A DNA stretch of 64,000 nt from Cycas panzhihuaensis (Eukaryota; Plantae; Cycadophyta): contig CM041465.1 in the NCBI GenBank assembly GCA_023213395.1, positions 9,238,001 through 9,302,000 of the forward strand, read 5' to 3'. Within the stretch, counting starts at the first letter, position 1, and the number at the start of each line of letters is the position of its first letter. Below, piece by piece: positions 6,526 to 63,107 of this stretch. The notes beneath the pieces are model-generated. The model was not told where the DNA came from. It ran no database searches and saw nothing but the letters and a program-made list of their open reading frames with translations. Position numbers and translations under genes: made by a program.

Positions 6526-7068
6526 TGTTGGAATATGCGATTTAATCACATATGTAATATTTAATGTTAATGTTGTGTGATACATACACAATTCCACCAA
6601 TCACATACATTGAGATATGTAATAGGTACACACATCCATGCAAATATGCTATTAGGATGATGTAACAGCTTAAGAGAAATTGCAGATTACTCATGAAGTG
6701 ACTATTGATATAAATATGTGCACACACCACGTGAGAACTGGAGAAAGGATTGAGAAAGGTCCAAGACCTGGAAATGTATTCATTATGATCATAAGAGGAG
6801 CTCCCAACTCCACCTTCTCCCTTGGTTTTTTCCACACTGGATTTTTCACGCATAAATCTATCATTGCTCTTGTGGTGAATGCTTGGTGCATGCTTTATTT
6901 GTTTATTTACTTTATAATCCATGATTATCCTTTATATGTGTACATTCGTCATCAAACAACTCAATCATAATACATACATGTTATATTTTCGTTGTGTTAT
7001 ACCCAGTACATCACAACATGATACTCTAAATTATAATTTGGTATTTGAGTAAATTTACATTTCTAACA
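6526..7068 (+). repeat. 3' LTR of element A
   Basis: Follows the PPT, has TG...CA termini and a TATAAATA box near 6710, and is followed by the TSD. Confidence 0.85.
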
Positions 7069-14028: not shown

Positions 14029-16375
14029 TTAATAAGGATTACTCGAGATATGATTTTAATACATGCTTTTTTAGCTCCTCCCAAGGCAAATGAGGTGAGT
14101 CTTATCTTAAATTATATAATCAATAATTAAGATGAGAATTAGGGTTGATATTTGGCCATTACACCATAATTTAGGGAATTATTTGAGTTAAAATCTTATA
14201 ATTTAAAAATATTCCAATTATATCTAATAAAAACACTTATCAAATGGTGTCATTTTAATATTATAAGTAGTTAGCATTAAGTTATGAAGCCTGATAGGCT
14301 TAGTGTTTAAAAATTAGGATTTGACTGCTTAATTACCATGTAATGCCAAGATTTATAGCATAAACTAAAACTTACATGCTTTGGCCATCTACAATTCAAT
14401 TTTTCATTAAGGAAACTGTAATTTATAATTGAGCAAAGCACATACACTTTATAAAAATGGAAAGTGGGCTTAATTAATTTGAATATCATAACTTAAGTAG
14501 AATACACCATCTGAGACCACATGCAACATCTTAGTTAAGTATATATTAGAAATGGTGTAAGACATAGTTATCCATTTTAAGAGAAAATTTGCTTGGAAAT
14601 TGAAATATACATCTCTTTCTCTCTCTTATAAAGTAATAATTATATATTATGCTTCTATGGGCCTTTTGTTTAGGGTGAAAAAATAATGGAATTTATTAGT
14701 ATTATATGGAGAACTCATATATAGGTAAGAAAGTGTAGTGACTCTTTTTTTAATACTTCATTCAGTACTTTTTTTAAAAGTTATATGCATTTCTTACATG
14801 GTTCACATGAGAAAATATTTCCCACCTATATTACAGTGTAATGCATTAAAATTTTAAAATGAATGCTTGTAAAAAATAAAGGATGATATCACTTTAATAA
14901 AAACTAGTGACAATAAAAGTCACTTTAAGAAATAATAATATAATCTATTACTTTTATTTTTACTTTAAATTATTATGCGTATTATTAATGAAAAAGCTAA
15001 TCCTAATTTAATTGCCCTGAAATCTATAGACATGGGAAGATCAAATTTTCCCTAACACCTTAAAATAAAATTAAGGAAGAGATAAATAAAGGTAAAATTT
15101 TAAATTGAAAAAAAAAAAAGGAATAAAGTTCAACCTAACTTAGTTCAAAACCTAAAGTTTAAAGTCCCTACTCCTAAGTTCTTGTAGTGGATCTAAAATG
15201 TATATACAATCTTAATCAACTTTATAAATAACCAATAAACAATAAATAAGTAATAATAAATTCTTAACAGTAATCAAGTTAATGAAAGGCAATGTCTACT
15301 TCTCTTATAGATGTATCCTTTCATATACATCTAATACATACACTATTCTTTATAACATTTCTGATCATTCAATTTATCAATTCAACATTTATCTTCAAAT
15401 TATTTCACCCTCATACTAATAGCCTTAGGTTTATAAGTGTTAACCATTATGGGTTACCCCACTTAATATTAAGATCAAGTTCTTTACACTTAGGGGGGAT
15501 TTAAAAAAGAGGATAAAAGGAAAAAGCATCATTCACTATTCAACCTTCCAAATCCATTTCCACTTATTATTTCATTTTCTATGCCACTCATCTCCTATAT
15601 TATGCCTATCATATTATACCTCAGTTGCTATCTCATTTTATATCTACCCCTCTTTATTTACATTTATTAACAATATTAGTATTATAGTAATAACTATTCA
15701 ATAATTGCTAATATTGTATTATCTGCTTAGTATATATTATATATTTCATTGTATATTTGACATTTTGTATTTGATGATTATGGTCATATGTAATTACCTC
15801 TTCAATGTAAAATAAGAGCCTAGTAAAATGCCCTATTAAGTATGGTGGTGCACCTTTACATATTTTATGTTTTGCATTATGATGTTATGTAGTTCCATAT
15901 CTTAGGGCCAACCACCTATTAGATTTACGTGAAAAGGAAACTAATGGTAAGATGTCTCAAGCGTGGACCTTTCAACTAATCTCTACGAAGAGGCCTCTTT
16001 ACTTGTGTGCTTAAGTGAGAATAAGTAAATTAAAATAATCTTGTAAATTTAACTTCTTCACATACGTACAATAAAATCAAACCAAAATTCGATCAAGTAT
16101 AACCAATCAAATCAATCAAATAAGTCCAACAAAAGCCTTCTTAACTTCAAAGAGGTCACAAACAACCTTCCAATAGGTGAAAGGATTGTTAGGTGTCCTT
16201 ACCCTAAAGTAAATATCGTAGGCTTTCTATATTTTCACTTAAAAAAGCCTTCCTATGGATAAAACTCTAACCTAGACCTTCATTCCCATCTAAAAAGGAG
16301 TAATCTACGTCATACTAGCTATAGATTAGAAGAACTAATGAGTATGGGGACTTAGGAGAGCTCAAATCTTAGATT

Positions 16376-16724
16376 TGTTGGAAATAATCCTAATGCTACT
16401 AAAAGACATGTGCGCCTAGGGCCCCTCAAAGCCACCTTTGAGGTTCCCTAGGGCACCTTGAGCCTCCCAATAGCCACCAGGAGCTGAAACCACTTTATTA
16501 AGGTACGCGTTTACATTTATTATTGTTAATTTTTTAACATATTTTGAATTATACATCGGCTAACGTGCAGGTAGGGTGATGGCGCTTATGGCCTCCCCAA
16601 AAACTCTATTTGAAAGGTGGGAATGCCTCCTTGGTGTTTTTTAACACTACCAACAATTAGAAATCACCTATTTTCTCAAAATACACTCGATCTAACGTCT
16701 TACTTTACTCCTCTGAATCTATCA
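16376..16724 (+). repeat. 5' LTR of element C
   Basis: TG...CA, followed by TT + PBS; direct repeat of 24826-25174. Confidence 0.96.
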
Positions 16725-19700
16725 TTTGGTATCAGAGCCAAAGAGGTGTTTGATATTTGTTTATGCTGATCTAGCTTCTTATACATCTGGCAAAATAGTT
16801 GCATATGATTACTAGTTAGAATCCTAACAATCTCACCTGTCTACTAGAGAAGATGGTTTGGAGTTTCGACCACTATGTAAGATGTTCTCACGCTTTGAAG
16901 TCAGTACTGCAAACCTGTCACAATGACTTTACCAGGTTCTTCGTGTTTTTTTTATACAAATATATATTTGTCATTTATTTGATGTATCTTTGTGAATATA
17001 TTTTAAAAAATATTTGGTTTATTTGAAGTATTTGTGTAATAAAAAAAAATAAAAGTGTAGATCCTCGTTGAAAGACCTATACTCATATAGATCACGTTTT
17101 TTCTCCCACCTTACTTTCTGGTGCTTCTGCATTCTCTTAGATTCACAGTTGATCCACGTTGTTCCTCTTCTATTCATCGTAATTTCGCCCTCTGGTTCCA
17201 CGAGCCTTCTGTGCTTAGATTGTGCTTGGACTCAGTTGTCTCTCCTAACATTTTTTTATTATTCAGATACAAATATATAGATATATTTCTTATTTATTTG
17301 TTATTACTTCTTCAATATATTCATAAGATTTGGAATCATCTACTGTATTTACGCGCTCTCTGCATTCTCTGTTTGTGTGGTGTTCCATTCGTGGCATCCC
17401 TTTATCTGCGTAACATCTCCCAGGCTTTTTGTTGGCTCTAGCTCTCTGTGGCTTGTCCCTCTTTAGATCTCCCCCCTTCCATAGTCCTCAACTACACTCG
17501 TTTACACTAATTTTTTCTCGGTTATGCTTTTGATAATCAATTTGGATCCAATTCGAATGGCTGCTCAATGGCATAGTTAGATTTTAACATTCCCGGAAGC
17601 TTTTGGAAGAAATCATTCCTTGCGATGCATAAGGAGCCTTTGCTCGTACAGGCCCTACTTTCGTTCGGCACTACATCGATATGTATTGTATTTGCACTAT
17701 GGCTACCTTGCAGTAACAGAGTCCTCGATTCTTCTTTCGAACCTCAAAACAGAAATGTTCCTTCTCTTATCTTCTTTTTGTGAAGTACCAAAAATATTGT
17801 CGCTGGTTACACCGTCAAAGCACAAACTTTTTTACTAATTTTAGCAGTCCTGCTCTTCGCCTCTTCTTACAGCCAAGTCACATAACCCCAGTCTATTCCT
17901 TGCAGCCAGTTGGGCATGCTTCCTATGAGTTCGATGTTTTATTCAGTAACATTCCCTATGAGTCATAAGCTGAGATATGCCACAAGTATTCCAACTGCGG
18001 TCCAAGAAGGAAATGCCAATAGAGGGCAAGCTTGTATAGCTGCAACGAGCCATCCTGCATCAATTTCTTATGCTCTATATGATGTGAAAATAAGCTAAGG
18101 AGAGCATTCTACATGTTCTTCGTTATTAGCATGAATCTAGCCAAGTGGTAGTTCACTCTAGGTGCCCAAGATTATGATAGTGATTTATATTTGTTTTGTT
18201 TGAAACCCTATCAGAAGGATTATTATTACTCTTCTTCAGCTGTTCGTTTATGTGAATTGAGCAATTTGACTATGATATCTTATACATCTTTCTTAATTAA
18301 TCGAGAAGCATACATGGTTTGTTCCTGTGCAGAAGCCTCGTGTTCTTAAGCACATACGACGAATACTACCATCGATTTGAACTTTTTAACAATAGCATAG
18401 TCGAAAAGATAAGAGCCGTCATCTTTTCTCCTTTTTTGGTTTTATACATTATACATAAAAATATATATGTATGTTTTTTTAGTGTGCCTTACCAGGTTTA
18501 CAAAGTCTGGTCTTTGTTTATGCTCTTTTTTCGATTTCATTTTATTATATTTTTTTTGCCCCGTTTTTGCCATTTTTATATTCATAGTGGCGCTCTTTTA
18601 TTTTCACTCCATATACTTCTTTATAAAGTTTTTAAAAAATCAAAGTAAATTGTATATATTTTTTTAGATTTGGGTGTTTAAAGGGTACTAGCCCCCCTTG
18701 GCATTTAGCCCCCGGCCCTGTGTCCCTTCCTCGTGATCTTCAACTCATTATTAAAAGGGGCCTTATTCTTTAAAGTTTATTGTGTCTTTTAAACTTGATG
18801 AGTGAGTTCACCCTCTTGGCATAGGAGGGGTTTATCTTTTGCAAGGTCTTGGGTTTAATCCCTACCCAGTCTACCCTCAGGTTGATATTCTAAGGGGGTT
18901 ATCTTAAGGATATAACACTTTACCTTTTATTTATTTATTTTAATTTATTTTTAAAACATAAGGTACTTGGTTATTTTCTGCTATATCTCCTCACTAGGTC
19001 ATCGGTTTCTGACGAAACCTATCCCATTGCATCCAAAAGTTTATGAGGTATGATTTTGACTAGTCATATGCCCTATTCAGAGCTGACTTGACTTATTTTC
19101 AATCAGTTTAAAAGTCACTTATTATTTTTTAAAGCTGTTGTAAACTATTTTCACAAAATCCTTTTTTTATTATATTATATTTTATCACCGAAAGATTATT
19201 TTCTACTCGGATCTACTCTACAGTCATCTATTATCAGTAAACTTTATCACCATCTATTCATTTTAATTTTTAGGATTTATTTTAATCATTATTTTAATCG
19301 ATGAAAGTGACACTTCAATATTTTTTTAATATATTAACATAAAAGTACTTACTGCTATTTCTATTATAACTTTTCTGTTTTACATCAGAATTCAGATCCG
19401 TTAGTTTCGTTGGGAAGCTGACTCACTCCTCTTCGAACTGACACTATTATTTATAAGTTTTAAAGTGTTTTTTTACAGATTTTCAAAGCCATCAAATTTG
19501 AGGTACATAATAGCCTCTAATTTGTCATTATTGCATATTTACATATATTATTTCTCAAATTTTTTCAACTGAAAATATATTAAGCAGCTTTCTAAACTGT
19601 ATTTGATAATTTTTTTATCATTTAATAAATTTTTATGTCTTATAAGTTTGTCATTTATTCGAAAGGCATACACTTATTGAAAGTTTTTTTATTTTTTATT

Positions 19701-20013
19701 CATCATTGTTGAAATATATCACTTACTTCTTGCACTTATAAAAGTTGCATTTAGTTTATTTAATTTCCAAAGGCATCTTTCATTTATTTAAAGAGCATTG
19801 CATTTTTTTCTTTTAAAAAAGTATTTACTTTCTTATCTCTTTCAAAGTGCTTCTTATTTATTTCATCTTGCTTAGAGGTTATTATTTTGTTTTCAAGTTT
19901 TTCTTTATTATATAAAAGGAAACCTTTTTTTTCTAATCAAGACCACACTGCTAATTAATTTATTTTTCACATTAAATAAGATAATCCCAAATTGAACCAC
20001 CCTATTTTTTCAG

Positions 20014-20376
20014 CCTTGTAAAGGGAACGGTTTGGACCCCTGAAGTTACCACCTCGCACACACTAATCAACCTACTCATATTGGATGAGAACAACAATTA
20101 GTTATCAAGTGTATTCAGTAGTAGGCTGAGGTGTAGAACCTGTTCATTTTATGGTGTATGGAGACCAATGCTAGACTTAGAGAGCATGAGTGCCTTGGTT
20201 CGAGAACCTTCACCGCTAGATCTGTTGCTAAGCATAAGTCTGGCGCAGGTGAACCAACAATTCAGGGGGGTGTAAAAACTTTTTTAATAGCCCACGTATT
20301 AAGGTATATAGAGCCTAGCGCTTATGTACAAGTATATTGGGTCCCTGTTTTACCATTTATGGGTAGGCGCCACTAG
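20014..20376 (+). pseudogene. Putative terminal exon of an unknown accessory gene carried by element C
   Basis: Acceptor TTTTTTCAG at 20013. Frame PCKGNGLDP*SYHLAHT...GGVKTFLIAHVLRYIEPSAYVQVYWVPVLPFMGRRH-stop. Homologous to 62743-63104 with many synonymous differences. Confidence 0.6.
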
Positions 20377-20632
20377 ACAGAATAACAACTGAAGGTTGCC
20401 CTAGGAGAAACTTAAACTTAGAGCCTATTAGCCTTAATAGGTCCTAGTTCACTTATTCAAAACTTTAGAAAAAACCTTGGGTTATATTTGGAAGTAAATT
20501 TTTTATATTTAACCATTTTTTTCAAAATTTAAATTCAATTTTTTTTTATGTTCACATTTACCTTTTTAAAATCTCATTTGTCACATTTGATTAACACAAC
20601 TTTCTTTCAAAATAACGTTTAGCTTTAGGAAC

Positions 20633-23600
20633 ATGATTATCCCAAAATTTGGTGGAAATAATTTACTAAACTAGAGGAGGAAGATGAGACCCATCCTCAT
20701 AGCTAATGATATGTGGGACATTGTGAGAACTAGCTACAACAAATTAGGACCTAATCTATTTGATGCAAAAAAAGTTACCTATAAAGAAAATGTAAAAAAT
20801 GATAACAAAGCCTTAGCCCTTATCTTTTACACATTAGAAGATCACGTGTTCCTAAGAGTTAGTGAATTAGTTAAGTCCAAAGAAGCTTGGGACACTTTAC
20901 AACTAATTTATAAAGGAGCAGCCTCCTTTAAATTACAAAACCCAAGAAGTAAGTTTGAAAATTTACATATGATACCCCATGAATCAGTAACAGAATTTAT
21001 GACCAAAGTCCAAGATATTGTTAACCAAATGAGGTCACTTGGGGATACCCTAACTAAACAAAGGGTAGTTGAAAGGATCCTTAGATACATAGGAGCTATA
21101 AGATGTTTTGAAATAGTAGCTACTAGTATTAGTATATTAAAGGATCTAAGTACCCTCAGAGTGGAACAATTTAGTGCCATGCTCATGTCTATAGAAGAGC
21201 AGCAAAATGCAAATAAATCTTTAGAATATGCCTTTGCTACAAAGGCCCGAATTTAATCTAACTCCCAAGCAGGAACCTCAAGAGAAAAGGAATCTCCTCT
21301 AAGGAGAAAATGTGGAAATCCTAGAAAAGAAACTAGATAGGACCCTCCACAATATTAAACCCCTCACCAAAAGAGGTAAGGAGGACCGCAACAACATGAA
21401 GATCCTCCAAGAAATTTCAATCAAAGGAGACAAGTTGAGAATCATCCTTATTGTCCACATTATTAAGGGAATTCTCAACCTTCAAGATCAACTTAAGAAT
21501 ATCATAACAACTGACCAAGAAACAAGCCTCCCCAATCTTATGAGGAAAGGGGGAGATCTTTCAATATTGATTGTTCTCAACCAAGAAGTCGAAGGCTAAG
21601 TTATGGGAGAAGAGATCCATTGTATTATACTTATTGCCATAGAAATGGTCACACCGAAGATAAATATTTTTTAAAACATGGACCACCATGTAGAGGACAG
21701 GCTTCAAATTCATCAGAATGAAAGGTTAATAATAGGTTATTTCTATCCAGTTTTTCTGCTAAGGAAGAAGAGGATGATAGCTGGTATATTGATTTAGGTT
21801 ACTCAACCTACATGACCCATAAAGAACATTTATTTCAAACCTTAGATAAAAATAGAAAAGGGTTAATTATGTTTGGAGATAATACTTCTCATGAATTAGT
21901 TGGGAAATGTAACATAGTCTTGTTGACTGATATTGGTGAATATAGATACTTAGATGATGTCTTATACGTCCCTGCCCTAAGAAAGAACTTGCTATCGGTA
22001 GGACAGATGATGGGACAAGATTATAAGGTGATTTTTGATAATGACGAATGTGTCATTAAAGACAAGAGAAAAAATAAAGCTATTATTGCCAAAGGTATAA
22101 TGACTAAAGATCGTTTATTTAAACTTATCCTTACCCCTTCAGATACCTATGCCCTCAGAACTTCAACTACAATGGATAGTGATTTGTGGCATAGACGGTT
22201 TGGTCATCTTAACTACAACAGCTTGGCTCTTATGAAAAAGTTGGATATGGTTAATGGTTTACCACCTATTGATGTCAATAAAAAGTTGTGTGAGGGATGC
22301 CTTCTTGGCAAACAACATAGAGAAAGCTTTCCAGATTTTAGCCATCAAGCATCTACCCCTCTTCAACTAGTATACACAAACATTTGTGGACCGATGACTA
22401 CTCCCTCCTTAGCAGGTGCAAAGTATTTTCTCATGACTTCACAAGAAAGACATGGGTTTTCTTTCTAAAATATAAATCCAATACTTTCGACCACTTTGTT
22501 AACTTCAAAACCTTTGTTGAGTGACAAAGTGGATATCATATCCTTTCTTTAAGATCAGATAATAGAAGAGAGTTTACATCTAATTCTTTTAAGGATTATT
22601 ATATCCATGATGGGATCAGGAGACAATTTACTAACCCCTACACCCCACAACAAAATGGTGTAGTGGAAAGAAAAAATCGAACTATCATTGAAATGGCATG
22701 ATGTATGCTTAAGGATAAAAGCTTCGGCCATGGATTTTGGGCTAAAGCAGTTCATACAGTCGTCTACCTACTTAATAGATGTTCCATTAAAGCGCTTAAG
22801 TGGAAAACTCCCGAAGAAGTATGGACCAGTTATAAACCAAGTATACATCATCTCAGGGTATTTGGATGTTTAGTATATGCCCATATTCTTGATCAAAGAA
22901 GAACTAAGTTGGATGACCATAGTGTCAAATGTATCTTTATTGGTTACAATGAATCTTCTAAATCCTACAAAGTCTATGATCTGAAATCAAGAAAAGTTAT
23001 AGTAAGTAGAGATGTAAAATTTTAGGAAGACACATACTACCAAGATAATTAGGAAAAGTAGAAGGAGATTGCCATTAAATTTGACACATCAAGTAAGTCC
23101 AAATATATGCCTCCTATGCGGAGAAATATCCAAGAACCCACTAGAGAGGGAACATCATCTCAACCTCCACCACAATATCTATCCAAATGGATTCATCGCA
23201 ACCATGACTTGGGAAATATATTGGATAATAATAGAAGATTCACATGCTCTCATAGGGTCAACTTTACCCTAATGAGCAAGGTACATAAAATTCATGATCC
23301 TTAAATCTTTGATGAGGCTAATCAACATGAATGTTGGCAAAAAGCCATGAAAGAGGAATATAAGTCCATTATTAAGAATAATACTTGGGAACTCATAGAT
23401 TTACCACCAAAGAAGAAAGCTATTGGCACCAAATGGGTCTATAAGACCAAGTTCCACTCAGATGGCTCCATCGACAAATATAAAGCTAGATTGGTCATAA
23501 AAGGATATGCCCAAAGAGAAGGCATAAACTATATTGAAACATTTGTCCATGTCACTAGGATGGAATCTGTTCACATGATGATGAGTTTAGCTACCCAAAT

Positions 23601-24800
23601 AGGTTAGAAAATTTATCAAATGGATGTAAAAAGTGCTTTCTTAAATGGTTATGTCAAAGAAGACATATATGTCACTCAACCCATCAATTTTGAAGTCAGG
23701 GGGGAAGAAAACAAAGTGTACAAGTTAAAGAAGGCATTATATGGTCTAAAACAAGCACCCGGGGCTTGGTATTCTCGCATAGATAAGTATTTTAGAGATC
23801 AAGGGTTTGAGAGATCTCCAGCAGATCCAAACTTATACATCCAAATCAACGGAAATTCGATATTAATTGTAGGACTCTATATGGATGATTTAATTTATAC
23901 CGGAAACGACTCCTATCTTTTACACCAATTTAAAGATGCTATGTGTAAAGAATTTAAGATGATAGACTTAGGCCTCATGCATTACTTCCTAGGATTGGAA
24001 GTCTAGCAAGACAAACAAGGAATCTTCATCTCTCAACACAAATATATATTGGATCTACTATAAAGATTCAGAATGACAAATTGCAAACCATTGACAGTAC
24101 CAGCAGAAATTGGAATCAAACTTTCTAAGACAGATAACTCGACTTCATTTAATCCCACTCTCTATAGGCAGCCTAATATATTTGACATCTACTTGACCAA
24201 ATATAATATATTCAGACAGTGTTGTGTCTAGGTTCATGCAGGATATAAAGACGTCTCATTGGCAAGCTGCCAAAATAATCCTTCGATACATTAAAGGGAC
24301 TCCAGATTTTGGGTTATATTACAAAGCCACATCCAAATTCTAGTTAATTAGTTACACAGATTCAGATTGGGTAGGTGATGTTGATGATAGAAAGTCTACC
24401 ACGGGTTATGTATTCAGTATAGGATCAATAGCAGTAGCTTGGAGTGCAAAGAAGTAAAATACCATTTCCTTATCCACAGACGAGGCAGAGTATAAGGCTG
24501 CAGTTTCAGAAGCTTGTGAATCAATATGGCTAAGAAGACTTTTACAGGATTTTCAGATTAAATAATGAGGTCCCACTAGAATTTGGTGTGACAATCAAAG
24601 CATTATTCAAATGGCCAAAAATTCAGTATTCCATGGCAGAATAAAACATATTAAGACCCAACACCACTTCATTCGGAAACTTATATAAGTAGATGAGATA
24701 GAGTTGACTTATTACAACATTAAAGATTAGACAATAGATATTTTCACAAAGGCTTTGGGAAAGATCAAATTCGAGAAGTTTAGAGACAATTTAGGAGTCA
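20633..24800 (+). pseudogene. Disrupted copia gag-pol polyprotein of element C
   Basis: Gag (IPKFGGNN..MRPILIANDMWDIV), protease (WYIDLGYSTYMT), LWHRRFGHLN, integrase (YTPQQNGVVERKNRT), RT (MDVKSAFLNG, LYGLKQAP, LYMDD), RNase H (YTDSDWVG, DIFTKAL). Multiple stops and frameshifts. Confidence 0.95.
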
Positions 24801-24825: not shown

Positions 24826-25174
24826 TGTTGGAAATAATCCTAATGCTACTAAAAGACCTGTGTATCTAAGGCCCCTCAAAGCCACCTTTGAGGTTCCTTA
24901 GGGCATCTTGATCCTCCCAGTAGCCACCAGGAGTTGACACCACTTTATTAAAGTACACGTTTACATTTATTATTATTAATTTTTTAATATATTTTAAATT
25001 ATACGTCGGCTAACATGTAGGTAGGGTGATGACACTTGCCGCCTCCCTAAAAACTCTACTTAAAGGGTGGGAATACCTCCCTGGTATTTTTTAACATTGC
25101 CAACAATCGAAAATCACCTGTTTTCTCAAAATGCACTTGATCTAACGTCCTGCTTTGCTCCTCTGAATCCATTA
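24826..25174 (+). repeat. 3' LTR of element C
   Basis: Follows the PPT. Terminal CA mutated to TA. Followed by TSD AGATT. Confidence 0.96.
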
Positions 25175-50980: not shown

Positions 50981-52990
50981 TTTATAAGATTTTTGGGGCA
51001 TACAAATATATAATGAAACACCTCTTATGAAGAGTCACATCCCTAACTTAATATATATTACAAATGTCATTGTAAGGTTTGCAACAATATCAATATGGCT
51101 ATCAACAATGTGTAAATAAAAATATAAACTTGATACATGGGGATTCATGAGAATTAGTTTCCCCAATTTCTTCTTCTAGTGGAGTTAGTTCTAGTTCAAC
51201 AAGAGTTTCTTTTTCCTACTTCCTCTCATTTAGCTTGGGTTCCTTATAATAAGTCGTCTCTTCAAAAATATACTGGCGAAGGCATAAAATGTAGACTTGC
51301 CAATCTTATATGTAATATATGTAATACTAAGTTCTTATTAATTAGTAAAGGCAAATGTAAAAATAATTAGAGGTGAGTAATGTTTGGATAATGCCTAATG
51401 TGTTAAAGAGTGTGCAACCATCCTCGGGCCTGCAAACGACACCTCGGGCCACCTATAGCCACCATGTAGCCATCAGAGCCAACTAAGGTGTGTTAATTTA
51501 ATATTTCATTTATTATTTTATTTATTTTTTGAATTTTGTACTAACATTGGGTTGAGGCAGTCCATTACCTCCCAAAAACTATATATTGAAGGGAATGCCT
51601 CCTTGGTGTTTTTTTAACACTACCTTTGGATCTACGAAGATTACTACCTTGTGAAGGTGGATTAAAGATCTTGTGATCCTCTCACTCTACTCCTCGACGC
51701 CTTCATTTGGTATTAGAGCTTGTGATCGTGTATGGTATTTCAAGTTTTGCCTCTGCATCACTTTACCAAGTTTTTTATGAGTTTATATAAATATTTTTCA
51801 GATATTTCTCTATTAAATTACGAGTGATAAGATTATAGTTTCATCTTGCCTTTATATTTGCTATTCTATTTGCATTTGAATAGTGCGTGGAGCTATTTAT
51901 ACCAGCGTTTTCATTCACCTTATGTATGGTTCCACTATGCCTGCTCCATTCCCAACGTGGTATGTCAACCTTAGTGTCTTTGTCTCCATTTATGTCCTCC
52001 TCACATCTCTGTCTGAACGTTTACCCTCAAGCTACCATATAATGCACATACGAAGAGATTCTTTATTGTACAAAATCCCATTAGATTTCTTATGACCGAG
52101 CTCTGGATCCTTTCCAAACCTACTGCATTATCAAAGTTTCATAAATTTTGATGTTTATTCGACTTTGGAACTCGTTTTATATTTCTATATTAGTATGAGG
52201 CTTCAATTATTTTGAAACTTAGCTTACATTAAAATCCTTTGAGAGTTCCTCCAAGAATTTGTATGAGCTATTGCAAAACGCTAGATGAACGTCAATTCAT
52301 TTTTGCATTGAATATCTTAAAATTTGGTATATATTTAGATGCTGTAGAGTCGTTTGAATCTTCTGGCCTCATGTTGTTCAAAGCTTAGTTGGAGTTGGAA
52401 GTTGTTTTTGTTTCAAGGAAATCGATTGCAAAAGCTTAACCCCCTTTAGATCCCTGTCTCTCCATGCTTGTAATTCATATCCAAAGCATTATAAAAATTT
52501 GTGAGCTAAGAAGAACCGAATGGACCCATGACTTTCACATTGGGCACAAGCTCTTCATATCTATATGCCCATGTTTCTACCCTATCAATATTCCCTTTAG
52601 CGTTTGGATCCTAATTGAGCTGGGTGCCGAGGCTCGGACAGCTGGGATCGACCAACACACTAGACCAACGCTTATGTCTAGTATGTTAAGTATGCTTGTG
52701 AAGGAAGAGTGGCTTATCAAGCTTGTGAAGCTGAAATCATCATCTACTATTATTATTGAAGGCTACTAGTCTTCAAATCTTATGGTCAATCTTTTCACTT
52801 TGTAGATTTTATTTGTCATTTATTTATGTCTTGCCTTCTGACCTTAGTTGTTTAGAGACTGCTCATTAAGTTTTATAGTAAGCATTCTCCAAATTGTTGT
52901 ATATCCTTTGTGTGTATGTTATCTAGTGGATAACTTATGCAAGCTTTGGGGTAAATACTATTCATGTCTTATGGTTTCTGTTTCCTAGCT

Positions 52991-55562
52991 AGTGGGAATG
53001 GACTTGGGACGCATCGACACAGGTTTGTTCAGGTATATGTTTTCACTTTTCTTACTTATGATTGCTAAGGTAATTTGGAGTAATTTGATTGACATATGCA
53101 CCCTACGCATTTGCTTGACTGCTTGCTCATAATGCATGTGCCTAACGGCACCCTTTAGCCTATGACGACTCACAGAGGGGGCATCCATAAGCGGATGCGA
53201 CACCCCGCATGGCGTCTGACCACTCACGATGTCTCCATGGTCTTTCGGGATGCTTTTGCCACTGTTTGCTCTTATTCTGACGTGCCACTTATGTTGCAAA
53301 CCCTTCCTAAGCTTTGGTTTAACCCTTAGTTAGGGCTCTTTGCACCATTTTGAGTACTTGCCTTTGCCTGGCCTTCCCGATTGATTTAATTCATGCTCAC
53401 CCTTGTTCTTACCTTAAAAGCGATTTTTATGACTTTTAGGTTGCTTTTTCTCTTTTTCAAATTTCGTTTGTCTGCGCAAACTTAGCGGTACCACAAAGTT
53501 CTTGATGGTACCGGTCGTCTGCAGTAAACTTAAGCGATGCCGCAGTTCTTGCGTGATCTGACGCTTAAAATTTGAAAAAAGAAACCACGACGATGGCGCG
53601 TTTTTAGAAGCTGGCGTGGCTCCGTACGATTGGGGGCGCCCCAAGGCCCCCAACGTTCACTTGCTATGCCCAAGGCATAAAAACCCTTTTTTCATTCATT
53701 TGCCTCATTCTTGAGTTCACTTTTCTAGACTTCTAAGCAAAAACTCTCTACAAAAAGACAAAGGAAAACACAGAAACTAAGGATTTTCATGTACAGCAGT
53801 TGAGCAGAGGTGAAGTGGGCTACTACCATTGGAGTTGCAGGGGCCATTCTTGCCCCTACGTTTCTCCACCACAAGCTTCACCTTCTCTCACAAATACTCA
53901 AAGTTCCAAGGCATTTCTTCACAAAAAAGACTACTCCAAAGGACAACTTCTAGCTCCCATCTTGCACCTGAGCTTCCTCCTTCCATCTTCTTGCAAAGGA
54001 CACTTAAAACCAGCCTTTAGACATTGTTTGTGCTGCTGCTCCAAGTAGCCAAGGTGCATGCATGCATGCTCTCCTTCATTCAAGGTATTTCTTGTCTCTT
54101 GTTGGTGCATTTTTTCCTTGCTTTTTGTTATTTTACTTGCAAGCTCTTCTCCTTCTTTTGTGTGTGCTTTCTTTGGGATCTCCTTTGTCATTTGATGCAA
54201 GTAACCTTAGCTAGTTGCGGCTTACTATAGTGTTGCCCTAGATTGGGTGCATTTTCTTGCATTTCCTTGAATCCCATCCTCTTCCTCTTAGCTTCCTCCT
54301 TCGCCATTTCCTAAGCTAATAGGCATAAAGGGTTTTCACGAGGATTTGAGGGAGATAGGCGGGGTTAGTCCCCATTGCCGTCCTTCTCCCCAAGGGTTCC
54401 GTCCCTTATCCTCTCCCCTTTAGCACCCGTGCTTTCTTAGGAAGCAGAGCTAGGAAGCCTTGGAGAGTTGGGTTGAGTTTCCCTCTTGGTGTAGGAAATT
54501 TGTTACTACATGACTCACCTTGTTGCATGCTAGCATTGTTTTCCCTATACCCTGTGGAGACCTCTCGTGGGTGAGTTAGCCATCCCGAGGCTACACTCAA
54601 TCCCATTTAGCATGTTTCGTGGTGTATGATAGCTTGCATGTTTCAAATGCGATTACATTTCATTTTCGTTACATGTTGGTGCTTAACTACATGTTTCTAG
54701 CGTAGTTGATTTCATTTTCAGTATATACACATATATCTTGTTGTGCTTCGTAGCCTCTCTCCCGAGAGGAAGGCGTTTGTTGGGATTGTTGGTGGGATTG
54801 CGTTGGAGGAATCATTCGCGAGATCGACCCATTCTTGGGTTACCCCCATATGGTATTTCTTCTCCCTTTTCGGTTGAGCTTTGCTTTCGTTTCCTTCATT
54901 TCGTTTAGTCCTTGCATGCTTTTGGGGAGGTAAGTGCACCACGTTCGTTGCCTGCGATCGACGTTGCATGCGCGAGAGGAGGAAAGGAGCGCAACCGAGG
55001 AGGGGAACTGCGTTCTACTCGGACGCCGTATCCAGGTATTTTCCACGTATCTCTCATATTTCCTTTATGCTTTTATGTCTCTTTGCATTTACTTTGATAG
55101 GTAAAGGAACATAAAGAAGAAGGAAAAATAATATTTATTTTACATTTGCCTTCTCGTATTACTTTGTTACATTGCATAACATAGGAATAGAAGGCTTGTT
55201 CGTTGTATCCTAGCCGCATTCTACCCCGTTTTCTTTACACTTTTGGTTGGTTGCCCCCCTCGTCGCCTTCTCATTGCCTTGAGAAGTAGCGACGCGCGAG
55301 GATTCTTTTCCCTTCCCGACCATCCGAAGGGTAGGAAGGCCTCGTCTTGCACGGCTACCTGGAAGCAACCAGGCACCTTACGATCCGTGCCGGCTTGCGC
55401 GGACGTCTGCGGTATGATCCTCGCTATTTAGCCTGTTTAGCGTATTGTTTTATGCCCTTCCCGCTAGGCGTTGGATCATTGCCCCGCGGAGAGCGTTTCA
55501 GTTTCCTTTATGGGGATTTTGTATATTGTTGTTAAAACGTTGATAATTTTGGGACTGGCTAT
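52991..55562 (+). mobile_element. Element J: GC/CpG-rich ~2.5-kb insertion, probably a long LTR or solo-LTR of a gypsy-type element
   Basis: Sharp composition shift inside D. PPT-like GAGGGGGCA near 53174. TATA-like CATAAAAACCC near 53676 followed by a CT-rich leader. Flanked by CTAGCT direct repeats (52985-52990 / 55563-55568). No clean TG...CA, so boundaries are uncertain. Confidence 0.5.
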
Positions 55563-58500
55563 CTAGCTCTAAGTAAAGTATTCTTCATGTTGTTATATTT
55601 CCTGTGTTAGGGCGTTTCAATATTATATTCTCCTATGCATACAACCCTATGTGGCACTATTTTATCATCTAATAAATGATTTTTTGTAGAAGACTTTGAT
55701 GGTATAAAGCTTAGCATCAATTTGGAGAAGTTTTTATTCAGATCTCAATGATTTTTCATCAATCTCATTAATTTTTTGTTTTTAGTTTTAAGTTCTATAA
55801 GTTGATCTTGTTTCAACCGAGTTTTGCTCTCCAATGGATAATCAAAACCATTACATATGACTATTCATATTATTTATTTTTGAACCATCTTATTAACAGA
55901 AGAAACGGTTCAGAATTTCATCCATTCTCTTAGGAGATATTTCCTCCAGATCAACAGTGATCTCGCAATTTTTACAAAACCCTTGTTGCTTGCATCTATT
56001 TTTTATGGATATATATTTATTTTTAATAATTAATTTTTGATTTCTTCTATGTTTTTTGGATTGACCATCAACTACAAATCCATTTGATCAATTTTCAAGA
56101 ATTTACTTAAGTTTATTTCATTTTTTAATAGATATATTCAATTGACTTTTGTGTGCTTGCATATATGATTAATATTTTCACTTTATATATATTATTTTAT
56201 ATAAAGTTTGGCTTACATTTAATCAAATTTGATTAATTTTTAAATATGTGGGTGTGCAATGTTTACGTTAGCCCCCTCCGCCATATTCTTTGGTCATATT
56301 AAGACTCATATGACCATGATCTTATCCGTTAAGGAGGCATACTTGAATGTATTATTAACTCCTTTTTATAATTTTAAGTTTTAAGAGGTTTAACCATATT
56401 TCATAAAATTTCGAGTCCTAGCCCCCTTAGGCTCTTAACCGCTAGTTTTATTGGTTCCCACATGACCCTCATCTTATTTGTTAATGGGCTTAAGGCCTTA
56501 ACCTTATTTTTCATTTTGATTTTTTTACCTAAAAGAAGATAGTTTACATTTTCAACTGTAACTTAATGCTGGAGAGTCAGTTTTGCGATCTGCTGAACTC
56601 GTTGGATTCCTGACTTAGAACTCTACAACCTAGTGTCCTTCTTTGCTTTATTTGAGCTAATTTCATAGTATTTTATCAGGTTAAAGTTGACATTTATTTA
56701 TTGTGCATATTTTAGTAACCATAAATGGGTCTGTTCACTGTTTCTTTAATAACTTGAGTTTTACAGCTCTATTTTTTAAATTACAAGAACCGTTGGAAAG
56801 GATTTTTAAAGATCTACACCTTGAACTAGTTTCATCTTAATTCGATACTATTTTTCAGGTGTTTAAATCTCCTCAACTCAAGCCTATATTTTAGTCCTAA
56901 TCATACACATTTTATAATATTTTGAGCCAATTTTTCATCTTAATCAAATATATTTAAGTCTTATTTATATAATAATAAGTTATTAATAATATTTATTGGA
57001 TTTTATAAGATTACAAAATGATTTTTAGACCTTTAGCTTTAACTTTGACTACTTGAAATTCATGAGGCCTACTTGGACTATTAGCAATAGTTAACCTAGG
57101 TTAACTATAACTTAATGCTTCATTAAGGTTAATTAGTGTGTGCAGGTGTGATGAATGGATGTGTCCATTGGCAAAAAGATATGACCTTATGTGGTACCAT
57201 TTTGGGGTATATATATTCATACCTCCTTGATATTTAAATCACCAACTCAAGATCATATGATCTCAACAATCTTTTCGTGCTTCATCTCACCTCTGAAACA
57301 CTTTGTATTATTTTATGTTTAATATATTAAAACATTGTGTTGGTGGGTTTTCTCTCTCGAAAGTTTACCATTATATATGTGGTGTTCAAGTCTCCTTATG
57401 AATGATCCTGGTGTGTAGTAGTCTCAGCCTCTGGTTGGATTGATAATGAACCTGCAACCTGTATATACACAAACTCTCATATGGTATTAGAGCCTAAGGA
57501 AGCAAGGAATGATGTTAGAACTTAGATTGAGGTTGGAAATGAGTGAACTTATTACTAACTAGTCAGATTCAGAGACTAGAGACCATAGATCAAACTAGCA
57601 CTGAAATAAGTGGCCATCTAAAGTTGGAAAACACATTAAGCTCCTCATATACTTATGGCACCAACATTTGAAATCTATATAGTGACGTTGGGCTTTAAAT
57701 CGAAGCCATACAATGATGTTGGGCTTATTTGGACATCACAAAGTAGTATTGGACATGAAGCACATGTATAACCAAACCAAAGTAATGCAGAAGACAACAA
57801 CCATATTAGAGACTACAACTTATGATTAGCAATCATCATTGTGGTACTTAAAATGGAAGATATTGATCTTATTTTTTACAGTCGGAGGTACAAAAATCGA
57901 ATACAATTATGTATGTTAAGATGCCACAATTTTCAGTTTATAAATCATGCTGGTTGATAAGTTGTATTGAGCATCTATTAATCATATTTGAAATATGTGA
58001 TTAATCGAATTCAATTTATCATTAAGCTGTTATCCTATACAAACTTAACAATCCATCAAATCGTTCAATATATCTATGCAAACGCGATGATCCATCAAAT
58101 CGTTCAATATAAATATAGTGAGGTGAAATCTTTGTATGGCACTTTTGGATGAAACATCAATTGCGTGGTATACAATACTTTAGGTGTACCATTGAGTCAC
58201 ATGATGATTAAAGTGACAAATATACAGCCATCATTTTGGAAACTTAATTTTTGATATATATTAGTCACCTTTTTATTAACACACAAGGTTTGAATTTGCA
58301 GGCTACGTAGCAAAAAAACATTAATCTTAATGATATAATATAGTTCAAGGGTGTAGATATATATTAATCATATTTTTTACAGCGTACGATTTTGAAAAAT
58401 CAAAATTGAAGAGATTATTCTTTTAAATATTCTTAATTCAATATATAAGGTTAAAACTTAGATTGAAATAGTTGAAAGTGATTTATTTGACCTTTTAAGG

Positions 58501-58795
58501 CACTTTATTTATCGCATCTAAGATTGGCCTCATAACCCGTAATATTCCTCTAAGAGATTTTATCTCTTTCGTCAAGAAGTTTGTAATGTCATAAGTGGTA
58601 TTTTTAATCTATTATTACTTCAATTGATGATAAAAGATATATTATCTTTAGAGAAGGTGTGAACCTTATATCAAATCTTAGTGAACTGATATACAGAGTG
58701 TTTAATTAAGCTTCGTAAAGTGTTAAGACAAGTGTAACAAGACTTATCATCATGATCAGTAATCAAGTGGAAGACGAATCAAAATATCTACAAAC

Positions 58796-61500
58796 ATGGA
58801 CCCTAAGACGACCATGTTGTTGTAAGTAATCTTTGACGGCACTAACTTTGGGGAGTGGAAATCCAACATAAAGCTTGTGTTGATGGTCCAGGAGCTTTGG
58901 GACCTAACTTGCGAGGCTCCACCCAAGAAAAAGGAAGGGGAACTTGATGTTGTGCCAGATAAACTTACACAGAGAAAGTAGCGTCATGCCACTAGTCTAC
59001 TAAAGCTCTCACTTGCCTTAGATCAAAGAACACTTGTTTACAAATTGAATATGCCACATGACATTTGGTAAACTCTTTGTGACACATTTAAACAAAAGAA
59101 GACAAACCGTTTGGTTATCTTATTGGGTGAACTGTTTAATTCTTTCATTGAGGATGAGAGTAGTATTAGCACCTACTTAAATAAGTTGACGAATATTGGG
59201 AATAAGCTGGAGGGAATTGAAGAAGACTTGATTAGCAATAAAATCCTATTTATAATCATCATGAATAAGTTGCCAGTAGCTTACAACACCTTTCAGACCA
59301 TGTATAACATTGACAAGATGTTGTAAGTTACCTCGTTTCAAAAATTGAAGGAACTACTTCTTACAAAGGAAGCTAAGCTCAAACATCATGAGTTTATGGG
59401 TTTAACTGATATTAGTCATGCCCTATCCTCAAAAGTTCAAAAGAATGAGGATGAAGATAGGGATAAATGTTCACATGAAGAGGTTATTAATAAAAGGAAA
59501 AGAAGAAATATATTGGTTTATATACCTACTACAAAAAGATGGGCCACAAAGAAAAGGACTACTCGATAAGGAAAAAGAATTTAAGGCAGACCAATAGAAA
59601 AGAGAAAATTGGAGTATTTTGTGTACAAGTATCAACTAACTTGAGAAAACAACATATCTCTCCTAAAAGGCAGAGTTTTGATGTGTTGAACCAAGATCTT
59701 AGCTAGACAAACGTCATACTCAATAATACTGATGTGGTACCAATAAAAAATGTTGAAACTGTCATAGTAAAAAGTGGTTATCTTGAGAAGCTGTGGTATA
59801 CACATAGAATGAATCAAAATCTTCGTTCTACTAAGGATACTTAGGTATACTCTCCCAAAGATAAGTCAGATGCAAAAGATAAAGTGATAGATGAAAAATT
59901 ATGTGAAAATCAAATAAATTTATTAAGGAGTAATCGTGGAAAAGCTAACGACAATCACATTTCTAAGTTTTGTTCTAATCAAGGTATTTGGTTAATCCCA
60001 CATGATAGTGTTGGCCATATAGAAAGTTGATACCCTAATTGACATGGCATTATGTAAAGTACAAATGCAACATATCCCATTCAACTTTGGGATAGAAGTT
60101 GTGAGAACTGTTGTTCACATTGTGAATTAGATTCCAACCTCTGTAGTTCAAAGTGTGATGCCACAGGAAAGATGGACCAGTCAGAACCCTTCCATTGAAA
60201 TAATCTTAGGGTGCATCGAAAATGCACTAATCTCTGACAAACAAATGAAGGAATCTGACCATAGTCGCAAAAGCTCTTTTATGGGACACTATGGAAACAG
60301 TCATAGACTATAAGATCTAGTGATGTATGTTGGAGCGCATGACACTAACTATCCCAAGGAAGTCCTCTTCCCAAATCACTTTGGGGCTTTTGGTGTAACG
60401 ACAACTTATGACAAGTGGTATCAGAGTGACCAGGGTTCAAAATTGGTCCTGTGTTACCGCAGTAGCGCACCTAGACATACGTGAAGGCAGGGCAGTGGCC
60501 GTCGAAGAACGCCATGGTGGACATGCATGTTGTGTAGGTATAGCCAACTCCTTGTGACAGGTGAGTGTTGGACTGCGTGACACTAACTATCCTGAGGAAG
60601 TCCTCTTCCCAAATCAACCTGGGGCTTTTGGTGTAATGGCAACTCATGACAATGTAGAAGTTTCTTCATTGTCAAGATATAAAATTCAATGAAGCATTAA
60701 CAGACCAGTTTAGTAAGCCTTTGCTAACAGAAGTTTGTTACCCCCCCTTCACGACATCTCCTAATCCTGCAAAGGTTAAGCTCCAAGAGGAAGATGAAGT
60801 AAAAGGTAATGAAAAACATTAGTTACTTGTTGAGGAGACGATAACCTCCTCTAAGTCATTATTAGCCATAATCGAGGATGTAATAAAAAGGTTGATTGAA
60901 ACTTAAACTACTAGTCAACTTTAAATGATGGAAGTCATTCACTCCCACGTTTCTGATTTATTATGGCAAATGAATCATTCTTGGAAAGTAGTTATGGAGA
61001 AGGAAAATGACTATTTACATGGAAATATCCCTTCTATACTAATTGACCTTGAGATGATGATTGTATCCATTGATTAGAAGCTAGTAAATAGGTCAAATGT
61101 AGTAGTTACACTTGGTGGAGAGTTATATCAAAATAATATTCAATCTTTATTTCTTAACCTATACTTGGGGAGATTGTATTAGGCACAAACCTCTAAGGTC
61201 ATTAAGAAAGGATAGGATAAACAATTGTGCTAGTTAAATTGCACTAATGGTACATACCTTATATTTGATTTGGACTTGTCTTCGGTTGATGGAATATTAT
61301 GACCTATAGAAGAAGCTCTTAATTTGGGAGAAGAGTACATGAAAGATCAAATATCAACATCAAAAGTTAGATACTAGTCAATTGTTCGAGAGGTGTTTGT
61401 TAAAAGCAAACTTTAAGTCAAATCTTCTTCGACCACTAATCAGGTTACGAATCAATTCACAAAGTTGTTGGATGAACGTCACTAGTTAACACTCAATAAG
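58796..61500 (+). pseudogene. Element K gag and fragmentary pol relic
   Basis: FDGTNFGEWKSNIKLVLMVQELWDL (gag), EVVRTVVHIVN*IPT (IN), NQVTNQFTKLL (RNase H end). Most of RT is missing. Confidence 0.75.
60328..60651 (+). mobile_element. TRIM (terminal-repeat retrotransposon in miniature), 324 bp, possibly Cassandra-related
   Basis: 86-bp LTRs at 60328-60413 and 60566-60651, both TG...CA. PBS TGGTATCAGAGT at 60416-60427. 152-bp non-coding interior. Perfect TSD ATGTA (60323-60327 / 60652-60656). Confidence 0.95.
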
Positions 61501-62742
61501 ATCATCCTTGAGGTGGGATTAGTCTACAGGTCAGATCTCTTGATTAATAGAGGATTTGGTTTTGCTTCATCCCCTATTCTCATTAAGAGGGGATGTTAGC
61601 GAGAGTTAACTTAGGTTAACTATAACTTAATGCTTCATTAGGATTAATTAGTATGTGCATGTATGATGAACGAATGTGTCCATTGGTGAAAAGACATGAT
61701 GAAAAGATATGACCTTGTCTGGTACCATTTTGGGGTATACATATTCATACCTCCTTGATATTCAAATCACCAACTCAAGATCATGTGATCTCAACAATCT
61801 TTTAGTGCTCCATCTCACCTTTAAAACACTTTGTATTGTTTTATGTTTAATATATTAAAACATTGTGTTGGTGAGTTTTCTCTCTTGGGAGTTTCCCATG
61901 ATATATTTGGTGTTCGAGTCCTCTTATGAATGATCCTGGCATGTAGCAGTCTCGACCTTTGGTTGCATTGATAATCAACCTACAACCTACATATACACAA
62001 ACTCTCACATGGACCAATAAGACAAATCAATACTTCTTACCTTGACTATTCTCTTTATTTAACACTTTCATCTAAATTTAGAATATTTCTTGAATATATT
62101 TGATCATTTAACGTATTAAATCTTTTTGAAAATTTCAAGGTTATAACTAATTTATAAACTTATAAAGGAGCTTTTCATTATTTCATTTGCATTATTATAA
62201 AGAATATTTACAACAATCTTCATACATCTTAAAGTTCATTGGTTCATTAGTCAAAGAAGCTTTCTTAGTTATCTTAAAGTCATATTTTAAAGCTTGAGAA
62301 GTACATAGCAAAGGCATAGTTACAATTTTCTTTTTATTTATTTAATACTTTCAAGGTTCACTTAACATTCTTGATTTAAGGGCATTAAAATATTGAAAGC
62401 TTCATTGATTCATTGTATCACTTAGAGAAGGTGCACATAGTTTCTTATGTACTTTATTTTTAAGGAGCATTTTTCAATTTGAAAGATATTGACTTGTATA
62501 TTGGCATTCATTTTAATTTATTAAGAAAGAATATCTTGATCATTTACTTGATTTTGTCATAGTAAATTGATACAAAAGTATTGCTTATCATTTTTCATTT
62601 GAAATATTTAGTCTTGCTTAAAGTTTTTTTTATTTAATTTCTTATTTTAGAAATGAACCTTTATTATTTAAGAAAGACATATACTATTATTGTTCTCACA
62701 TTAAATAAAATAATCGCCCAAATCAACCACCCATTTTTCTAG

Positions 62743-63104
62743 CCTTGCAAGGGGAATGGTTATGACCCTTGAAGTTACCACTATGCACACACCTTTGGCT
62801 TACTCATATTAGATGAAGAATATCGCTGGCTATCACATGTATTAGGTGGTAGTTTAAAGTATAAAACCTATCTATGTTTAAAGTTCAAAGACCAAGGCTA
62901 GACCTAGAGAGGGTGAGTGCTTTAGTTAGTAAAGCCATCACCACAGCATCTGTTGTTAGGCATAAGACCAATGTAGATGGACCAACAAGTTAGGGAGGTC
63001 TAACCACCTTCTTAGTAGCCCATGTACTAAGGCATATCGAGCTTAGATCTCACGTATATGTATATTAGGTCCCTAGTTTGCCACTTGTGGGCGGGCGCCA
63101 CTAG
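62743..63104 (+). pseudogene. Homologue in element D of C's putative accessory-gene terminal exon
   Basis: Acceptor TTTTTCTAG at 62742. PCKGNGYDP*SYHYAHT...GGLTTFLVAHVLRHIELRSHVYVY*VPSLPLVGGRH-stop, with small frameshifts. Confidence 0.6.
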
Positions 63105-63107
63105 ACA

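What the first reader, a model, noticed from the sequence alone, without database searches (positions are those of the whole stretch)
16739..20376. Copia retrotransposon carrying an apparent intron-rich extra gene between PBS and gag
Seen: C has ~3.9 kb between the PBS (16738) and gag (20633). It alternates coding-like blocks with T-rich spacers bounded by sense-strand splice signals. Examples are CTTTACCAG|GTTCTT at ~16935, AAAAGTGTAG|ATC at 17060, TTTTTAG| at 18667, TTTTTACAG|ATT...TTGAG|GTACAT at ~19478-19502 and TTTTTTCAG| at 20013. Established: canonical copia elements have a short leader and only gag-pol, and known extra ORFs such as Sirevirus env-like lie 3' of pol. Inference: this lineage carries its own spliced accessory gene upstream of gag. 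The introns could persist only if unspliced RNA is the packaged genome and a spliced RNA encodes the protein. Function is unknown; a silencing suppressor or targeting factor is speculation.
Basis: partly seen in the sequence, partly recalled or inferred. Interest (0 to 1): 0.88.

Follow-up and report, generated by a model that had tools for sequence, protein, structure and literature searches.

The report
Copia retrotransposon with four-kilobase leader
A dead plant retrotransposon carries a 3.9 kb stretch in front of its genes, and a second, diverged element nearby shares parts of it; it is likely an inherited non-coding control region rather than an extra spliced gene.

Summary
The element (E1) is real: 349-nt LTRs at 16376-16724 and 24826-25174, 87% identical, target-site duplication AGATT, decayed copia gag-pol, and a 3872-nt leader. 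The leader is inherited. A diverged element in the window (E3) has at least 3.9 kb of leader with collinear blocks once its nested insertions are set aside. The extra spliced gene is not supported. Splice-like sites are no denser than in shuffles, and 3 of 5 alignable cited sites are kept in E3, about what chance gives. No protein homologue was found. One weak signal remains: a stop-poor sense frame at 17091-18096 (p 0.04-0.07), with an unalignable analogue in E3 (p about 0.1). Best reading: a long, mostly non-coding leader with conserved cis-acting blocks, likely bypassed for gag-pol translation by splicing one large intron. That splicing is inferred, not shown. Three other copia elements in the window have 1.3-2.1 kb leaders; relatives from other plants have 57-529 nt.

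The parts
16371..16375 (.). Target-site duplication AGATT (second copy 25175-25179)
16376..16724 (+). 5' LTR of E1, 349 nt
   Evidence: 87.1% identical to the 3' LTR, 40 transitions and 5 transversions, K2P 0.146
16727..16739 (+). Primer binding site (tRNA-Met type; the assignment is recalled)
16905..16976 (+).
   Evidence: 69% over 54 columns, score 36, not above the shuffle mean of 39; table 7 (contigs with other flanks join at this motif; two loose ends resemble E1 16905-16925 by eye)
17091..18096 (+). Variable 5' leader part with a stop-poor sense frame (4 stops in 195 codons at 17517-18101); possible decayed extra ORF, unproven; not alignable to E3
   Evidence: p 0.037-0.068; no homologue
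18599..19860 (+). AT/T-rich leader with small GC-richer islands, weakly collinear with E3 56173-57008 and 62037-62600
   Evidence: scores 64, 56, 52 against shuffle maxima 64, 64, 52; the order is collinear
19860..20384 (+). Conserved block, about 73% identical to E3 62605-63112; non-coding substitution pattern; likely cis-acting; AG at 20013 kept in E3
20494..20611 (+). T-rich, AG-free run directly before gag (117 nt, shuffle p=0.055)
20612..24800 (+). Decayed gag-pol (Retrotran_gag_2, Pol_BBD, gag_pre-integrs, rve, SH3_retrovirus, RVT_2); 12 stops in 968 domain codons, several frameshifts
24826..25174 (+). 3' LTR of E1, preceded by a purine-rich tract
51381..63113 (+). E3: related element used for comparison. 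LTR 51381-51705, PBS 51708. Leader in three pieces (51720-52978, 55506-57080, 62013-63113), split by a solo LTR (52979-55500, TSD GTTTC) and a nested copia (57081-62012), and cut by another LTR at 63114. Its gag is not in the window.

Best explanation
This is an old, dead Ty1/copia insertion whose family inherits a 3.9 kb leader that is likely non-coding and likely carries cis-acting signals, with one large intron predicted to be spliced out so that gag-pol can be translated. Shown: element boundaries, leader length, a second family with the same layout, and a conserved block near gag that changes evenly across codon positions. Inferred: (1) The leader holds 46 upstream ATGs, so scanning from the LTR-driven full-length RNA to gag would be very inefficient. 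(2) The simplest bypass is a spliced mRNA from the PBS-proximal donor (16936) to an acceptor at 20013 or just before gag, while unspliced RNA is packaged, which keeps the leader in every new copy. An internal promoter or ribosome entry site in the conserved block is the alternative. (3) The conserved blocks would be the splice, packaging or promoter signals, and the sequence between them turns over quickly. Odds: about 0.55 for a mostly non-coding functional leader; within that, about half for splicing as the bypass.
For: Inherited layout: E3 leader pieces sum to 3935 nt or more, with collinear blocks. E3-type leader sequence is covered by 61-73 contigs in each of 3 DNA runs from 3 studies, mostly under 90% alike. 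The conserved block is 73% identical to E3 (LTRs 66-76%). In the one frame path without shared internal stops, mismatches by codon position are 34/29/27. Simulated coding sequence at the same divergence gives so low a third-position share in 0, 4, 16, 111 and 221 of 1000 runs for dN/dS 0.1, 0.3, 0.5, 0.8 and 1.0. The control, RT of E1 against E2, gives 73/53/121. No periodicity in leader blocks and no homologues. 46 upstream ATGs. GT at 16936 and AG at 19478 and 20013 are kept in E3. T excess on the sense strand. Other copia leaders in the window: about 1.3, 2.0 and 2.1 kb.
Against: Splice sites are not enriched over shuffles, so the intron step has no direct support; 3 of 5 kept dinucleotides is about chance at 70% identity. 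No convincing RNA structure: fold z from -2.5 to +0.9 in 12 pieces, and 7 of 83 two-sided changes in a two-sequence alignment are uninformative. No Rfam match in the leader. Stop-poor sense frames lie in the 5' half of both E1 (p 0.037-0.068) and E3 (p 0.087-0.12). In all 3 candidate segments that frame also has the most protein-like composition of the three sense frames. The best spliced sense path scores above the shuffle mean (p 0.05, 0.20, 0.18). The codon test rests on two copies and one block. A block as conserved as the LTRs need not be under selection.
Confidence: 0.55

Rival explanations
1. The 5' half of the leader holds a decayed, fast-evolving extra ORF in the sense direction, mostly one long exon of about 200-330 codons, like the 5' extra ORFs of Ogre or a few Ikeros and Bianca elements. 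It would be read from unspliced RNA; the rest of the leader is non-coding.
For: Stop-poor sense frame 17091-18096, p 0.037 (base shuffles) and 0.060-0.068 (dinucleotide shuffles). E3 has one at the same relative place, 52233-52767, p 0.087-0.105. 4 stops in 195 codons is close to the 1.2% of true decayed frames. These frames have the best amino-acid composition among the sense frames. In E3, 0 of 37 listed differences create a stop in that frame, against 1-3 in the five other frames, and one contig of run X24 differs by a net 15 nt.
Against: The E1 and E3 frames do not align as DNA or protein (best z 1.9), although other parts of the leader do. Periodicity p=0.10 and 0.14. Synonymous share 15 of 37 against 12.6 expected, p=0.24, from 37 of 326 differences, those the tool listed inside the span. 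0 hits among 1.84 billion proteins; 0 of 133 candidates for the E3 frame.
Confidence: 0.22
2. The leader is ancient cargo, nested element remnants or captured host sequence, fixed in the ancestor of these families and carried along without function.
For: Nested insertions are common here: E3's leader holds three. The only confirmed long 'leader' among outside relatives, L002, is a solo LTR inside gag. The 5' halves of E1 and E3 differ completely. The conserved block is no more conserved than the LTRs.
Against: No LTR pair or long repeat lies inside E1's leader. Nothing in it matches other elements of the window except E3. A functionless leader with 46 upstream ATGs would be expected to hinder gag-pol translation (inference). 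Length is similar in two families whose LTRs differ by 24-34%.
Confidence: 0.15
3. One reading: an intron-rich accessory gene between PBS and gag, expressed from spliced RNA while unspliced RNA is packaged.
For: GC-richer and T-rich blocks alternate. Two cited donors rank 2 and 7 of 198. AG at 20013 sits at the AT-rich to GC-rich boundary and is kept in E3. The block 20014-20376 can be read without shared internal stops across its indels and ends at a shared stop. The best multi-exon sense path has p=0.05 at the lowest intron penalty.
Against: No third-position excess in that block. Its four indels are 1, 1, 2 and 1 nt. Splice-site density equals shuffles. The 18667 AG and 19503 GT are not kept in E3. 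The 17060 site is a poor acceptor. The upstream blocks do not align between families. No homologue was found.
Confidence: 0.08

Closest known systems
Ty1/copia LTR retrotransposons of seed plants; nearest RT neighbours are Ginkgo-labelled proteins (Gb_, 59-64%) and angiosperm and pine copia
   Same: Domain order gag-PR-INT-RT, 5-bp TSD, TGG-type PBS, short LTRs. REXdb lists tRNA-Met PBS and 5-bp TSD for most copia lineages.
   Different: 8.8 kb with 349-nt LTRs, against lineage means of 4.8-6.9 kb outside Angela and SIRE. Leader 3872 nt against 57-529 nt in 12 of 13 LTR-confirmed outside loci. E1 and E2 form their own branch (99/92), not inside any clade with those loci. REXdb lineage not determined; the RT motifs look Ivana- or Gymco-like from memory only.
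BARE1 and EVADE (spliced plant copia elements)
   Same: Precedent for a copia keeping a sense, U-rich, facultative intron while unspliced RNA is replicated (PMC3735527 passages; PMC12786077 passages).
   Different: BARE1's intron is 104 nt, lies at the end of gag and yields a gag-only RNA. Here the predicted intron would be 3-3.7 kb, upstream of gag, and no splicing has been observed.
5' extra ORFs (Ogre, Tekay, TatII among gypsy; a few percent of Ikeros and Bianca among copia)
   Same: Extra sequence between PBS and gag; such ORFs are heterogeneous and mostly have no database match (PMC6317226 passages and supplement).
   Different: Those are defined as open frames of 250 codons or more. The longest open frames in this leader are 116 and 115 codons and T-rich, and coding selection was not detected.
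SIRE/Sirevirus env-like ORF
   Same: Copia with an enlarged internal region.
   Different: SIRE's extra ORF is 3' of pol (74% of elements). Here pol runs up to the purine tract and 3' LTR, and the extra sequence is 5'.

Membership tests
Ty1/copia LTR retrotransposon | Two LTRs in direct orientation with a target-site duplication | tested here: met
Ty1/copia LTR retrotransposon | Integrase upstream of a copia-type RT (RVT_2) | tested here: met
Ty1/copia LTR retrotransposon | PBS next to the 5' LTR and purine tract next to the 3' LTR | tested here: met
   (tRNA identity recalled)
A named REXdb copia lineage (Ivana, Gymco, Ikeros, Angela) | RT clusters with labelled lineage references | not testable with these tools
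   No lineage-labelled references held; the tree of 52 rows places E1+E2 on their own branch in an unresolved fork with the Ginkgo-labelled clade
SIRE/Sirevirus | Extra ORF between pol and 3' LTR | tested here: not met
   pol homology runs to about 24800 and the LTR starts at 24826
Element with a 5' extra ORF (REXdb eORF-5'F) | Open frame of 250 codons or more upstream of gag | tested here: inconclusive
   Not open in this decayed copy; a stop-poor frame of about 335 codons has p 0.04-0.07
Element with a 5' extra ORF (REXdb eORF-5'F) | Frame conserved between related elements under purifying selection | tested here: not met
   5' frames of E1 and E3 do not align; the alignable block has no coding pattern
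Spliced accessory gene | Splice signals above chance and conserved | tested here: not met
   (3 of 5 alignable cited sites kept)
Spliced accessory gene | Continuous spliced reading frame better than chance | tested here: inconclusive
   p 0.05-0.2; a stop-only score has little power
Spliced accessory gene or spliced leader | Splice junctions seen in RNA | not tested
   No reads were laid on E1's leader

The most novel reading that the evidence does not exclude
A copia lineage carries its own sense accessory gene between PBS and gag, expressed from spliced RNA while the intron-bearing unspliced RNA is packaged. The stop-poor frames in the 5' halves of E1 and E3 would be its fast-evolving main exon.
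Probability: 0.12. Interest if true: 0.75.

Novelty: new variant of a known kind. Interest (0 to 1): 0.33.

Why it matters
Copia elements are usually compact, with gag close to the PBS: 57-529 nt in 12 of 13 confirmed outside loci here. A lineage that keeps about 4 kb and 46 upstream ATGs before gag must get gag-pol translated some other way. If that is a large 5' intron, it would be the reverse of the known copia splicing patterns and would separate translated from packaged RNA in a testable way. If the weak 5' frame is real, it would add a rare 5' accessory gene to copia. On present evidence this is a structural oddity of one host's repeats, shown in two decayed copies, with no demonstrated new gene.

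Tried and rejected
No whole genome is held, so copies could not be collected. No reads or contigs were laid on E1's own leader, so copy-level conservation and splicing there are open. In one search the one run guessed to be RNA shows no joint inside E3's 5' leader; with 3 contigs this is no evidence. Summed contig depth is higher at the PBS-proximal motif, but the tool says depth cannot rank parts. Protein searches without a result: Pfam; phmmer on 1.84 billion representatives, 0 hits; word-seeded searches with an antisense frame of E1 (0 of 38 candidates) and the E3 frame (0 of 133), lengths near the query only. The protein atlas gave no result for this question. Antisense captured gene: rejected, with 8-12 stops per antisense frame in 17517-18101 and no better-than-shuffle antisense path. 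Structured RNA or known RNA family: no Rfam or tRNA match in the leader. Sliding folds gave isolated z of -3.4 (sense) and -4.2 (antisense) among 128 tests with 25 shuffles each, not followed up. Helitron or tRNA-derived SINE end at 20376: considered from recalled motifs and dropped, because the homology ends only where another LTR is inserted in E3. Motif scans: 0 in metagenome contigs; 1 match in viral contigs, an isolated 18-mer judged chance. Outside relatives: none of 79 loci resembles the leader beyond two short AT-rich hits. 51 of 79 had no gag hit and were dropped; 15 of the other 28 had no LTR-confirmed PBS, among them L036, whose PBS-like site 3854 nt upstream has no LTR pair. Earlier scan notes: nothing found. 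Literature: seven searches listed no paper on a copia with an intron-bearing gene or large intron upstream of gag; most were seen as listings only. REXdb Additional file 1 (per-element extra ORFs and sizes) was too large to read and may hold similar elements.

Full report
Element. The finding lies in a complete copia insertion, E1. Its LTRs are 16376-16724 and 24826-25174, flanked by AGATT on both sides, with the PBS at 16727-16739. The LTRs are 87.1% identical, with 40 transitions and 5 transversions, so the copy is old. Pfam finds gag, protease, integrase and RVT_2 in copia order over two frames, with 12 stops in 968 domain codons. Gag homology to the related element E2 starts near 20612, so the leader is 16740-20611, 3872 nt. 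The nearest RT hits are 58-64% identical and include Ginkgo-labelled proteins. In a tree of 52 rows, chosen from the 120 hits, 12 loci and three window RTs, E1 and E2 are sisters (99/92) in an unresolved fork beside the Ginkgo-labelled clade. The host is a plant by inference; the REXdb lineage could not be set.

Is the leader inherited? Yes. A second element, E3, has an LTR 66-76% identical to E1's and a PBS at 51708. Its leader is split by a solo LTR with TSD GTTTC, by a nested copia, and by a third LTR at 63114. The three pieces sum to 3935 nt. The block 19859-20379 matches 62605-63107 at 72.6%. Weaker matches at 16923, 18599, 18853, 19240 and 19539 fall in the same order in E3, each at or below the maximum of 30 local shuffles. 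E3's 5' leader is covered by 62, 61 and 73 contigs in three DNA runs, mostly under 90% alike, so it is a multi-copy sequence. E1's leader has no internal LTR pair or long repeat. The stretch from about 16980 to 18600 does not align between E1 and E3 as DNA or protein.

Is it unusual? Of 79 related loci from metagenome contigs, 28 had a gag hit and 13 had a PBS confirmed by an LTR pair. Twelve of these, two of them duplicates, have 57-529 nt between PBS and gag. The thirteenth, L002, has gag 107 nt after the PBS and a solo LTR inside gag. In this window the other copia leaders are about 1.3, 2.0 and 2.1 kb. So 3.9 kb is long, but long leaders are not rare in this host.

Splice signals. The cited dinucleotides are all present. 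Scored with approximate recalled plant weights, strong donors number 5 (shuffles 4.4-4.6; antisense 7) and strong acceptors 3 (shuffles 1.9-2.0; antisense 0). The cited donors rank 2 and 7 of 198, and the cited acceptors 7, 16, 20 and 131 of 194. In E3, GT at 16936 and AG at 19478 and 20013 are kept, AG at 18667 and GT at 19503 are not, and 17060 does not align. Three of five is about chance.

Coding tests. In that path, mismatches by codon position are 34, 29 and 27 (four gap-free segments; an 11-nt segment left out). Simulations with 7% neutral decay per copy gave so low a third-position share in 0, 4, 16, 111 and 221 of 1000 runs for dN/dS 0.1, 0.3, 0.5, 0.8 and 1.0; the RT control gave 73/53/121. 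In the longest segment the frames with a third-position excess contain shared stops. Base periodicity is absent in five leader blocks and present in four decayed gag-pol controls. Pfam, phmmer on 1.84 billion proteins and two word-seeded searches found nothing.

Results against my reading. A stop-poor sense frame runs from 17091 to 18096, p 0.037 with base shuffles and 0.060-0.068 with dinucleotide shuffles. E3 has one at 52233-52767, p 0.087-0.105. These frames, and the frame at 20203-20376, have the most protein-like composition of their sense frames. The best spliced sense path has p 0.05, 0.20 and 0.18 at three intron penalties, against a very clear pol control; this test has little power. 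In E3, 15 of 37 listed differences are synonymous in the stop-poor frame against 12.6 expected, and none creates a stop there (37 of 326 differences). An extra ORF in the variable 5' half is therefore not excluded.

Mechanism. The leader holds 46 ATGs. From established scanning rules, gag-pol would be poorly translated from the full-length RNA. The sequence kept between the two families lies just after the PBS (16905-16976) and before gag (19860-20384). Contigs with other flanks also join at the first motif (table 7). I infer cis-acting signals. The most likely use is a donor near the PBS and an acceptor at 20013 or in the T-rich, AG-free run before gag (117 nt, p=0.055), with unspliced RNA packaged. 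An internal promoter or ribosome entry site would fit equally and is untested. No RNA structure or Rfam family was found.

Known systems. BARE1 keeps a 104-nt U-rich facultative intron at the end of gag (PMC3735527, passages). A 2025 review names EVADE and Ogre as the intron-bearing exceptions among plant LTR elements (PMC12786077, passages). REXdb found extra ORFs in 582 copia elements, mostly SIRE and 3' of pol; its summary table gives 5 and 2% for Bianca and 4 and 6% for Ikeros under the 5' columns, though the column alignment of that file looks unreliable (PMC6317226, passages and one supplement). Its per-element file could not be read. A review of additional ORFs says they occur upstream or downstream, most often downstream (PMC7264820, parts 1-2 of 3). 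Seven searches listed no report of a copia with an intron-bearing gene upstream of gag.

Verdict. Observation partly confirmed; interpretation partly supported. Non-coding functional leader 0.55, decayed single 5' ORF 0.22, inert ancient cargo 0.15, intron-rich accessory gene 0.08. New variant of a known kind; interest 0.33. The evidence is two decayed copies and no RNA on E1's leader.

Noticed in passing
window 51700-52978 (E3 5' leader), run X24: Three contigs of a run guessed to be RNA lie on this leader at under 90% identity. 70 of 90 listed differences are A>G or T>C and the loose ends are CpG-rich, as expected of a far less decayed relative of E3; the DNA runs show balanced transitions. 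Transcription is not shown.
   Followed up: partly
window 26914-40878 (-), 30611-38227 (-), 57081-62012 (+): Three more copia elements with long leaders of about 2.0, 2.1 and 1.3 kb; the second is nested in the first's gag. Long leaders may be common in this host.
   Followed up: partly
window 52979-55500 and 63114 onward: A 2.5 kb solo LTR with TSD GTTTC, and the start of a similar-looking LTR, both inserted in E3's leader.
   Followed up: partly
window 19479-19502 and 56859-56882: A 24-nt AG-bounded segment reads without stops in both elements, and its middle codon position looks the least changed when aligned by eye without gaps. The aligner places gaps differently and E3 lacks the following GT.
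   Followed up: partly
window 18680-18790 and 56255-56350: C-runs and G-runs that could pair flank a collinear island in both elements; fold z -1.0 and -2.5.
   Followed up: partly
L002 4530-6934 and about 8890-9560: A copia relative with a solo LTR inside gag (TSD GAAGA) and a second insertion in integrase.
   Followed up: partly
window 1476-6987: LTR-like direct repeats around a 4.5 kb interior with no Pfam hit in the three plus frames; part of it resembles 30907-31269.
   Followed up: no
window 46758-50983: A short, very decayed copia with LTRs 79% identical; protease and integrase remnants, no RT hit.
   Followed up: no
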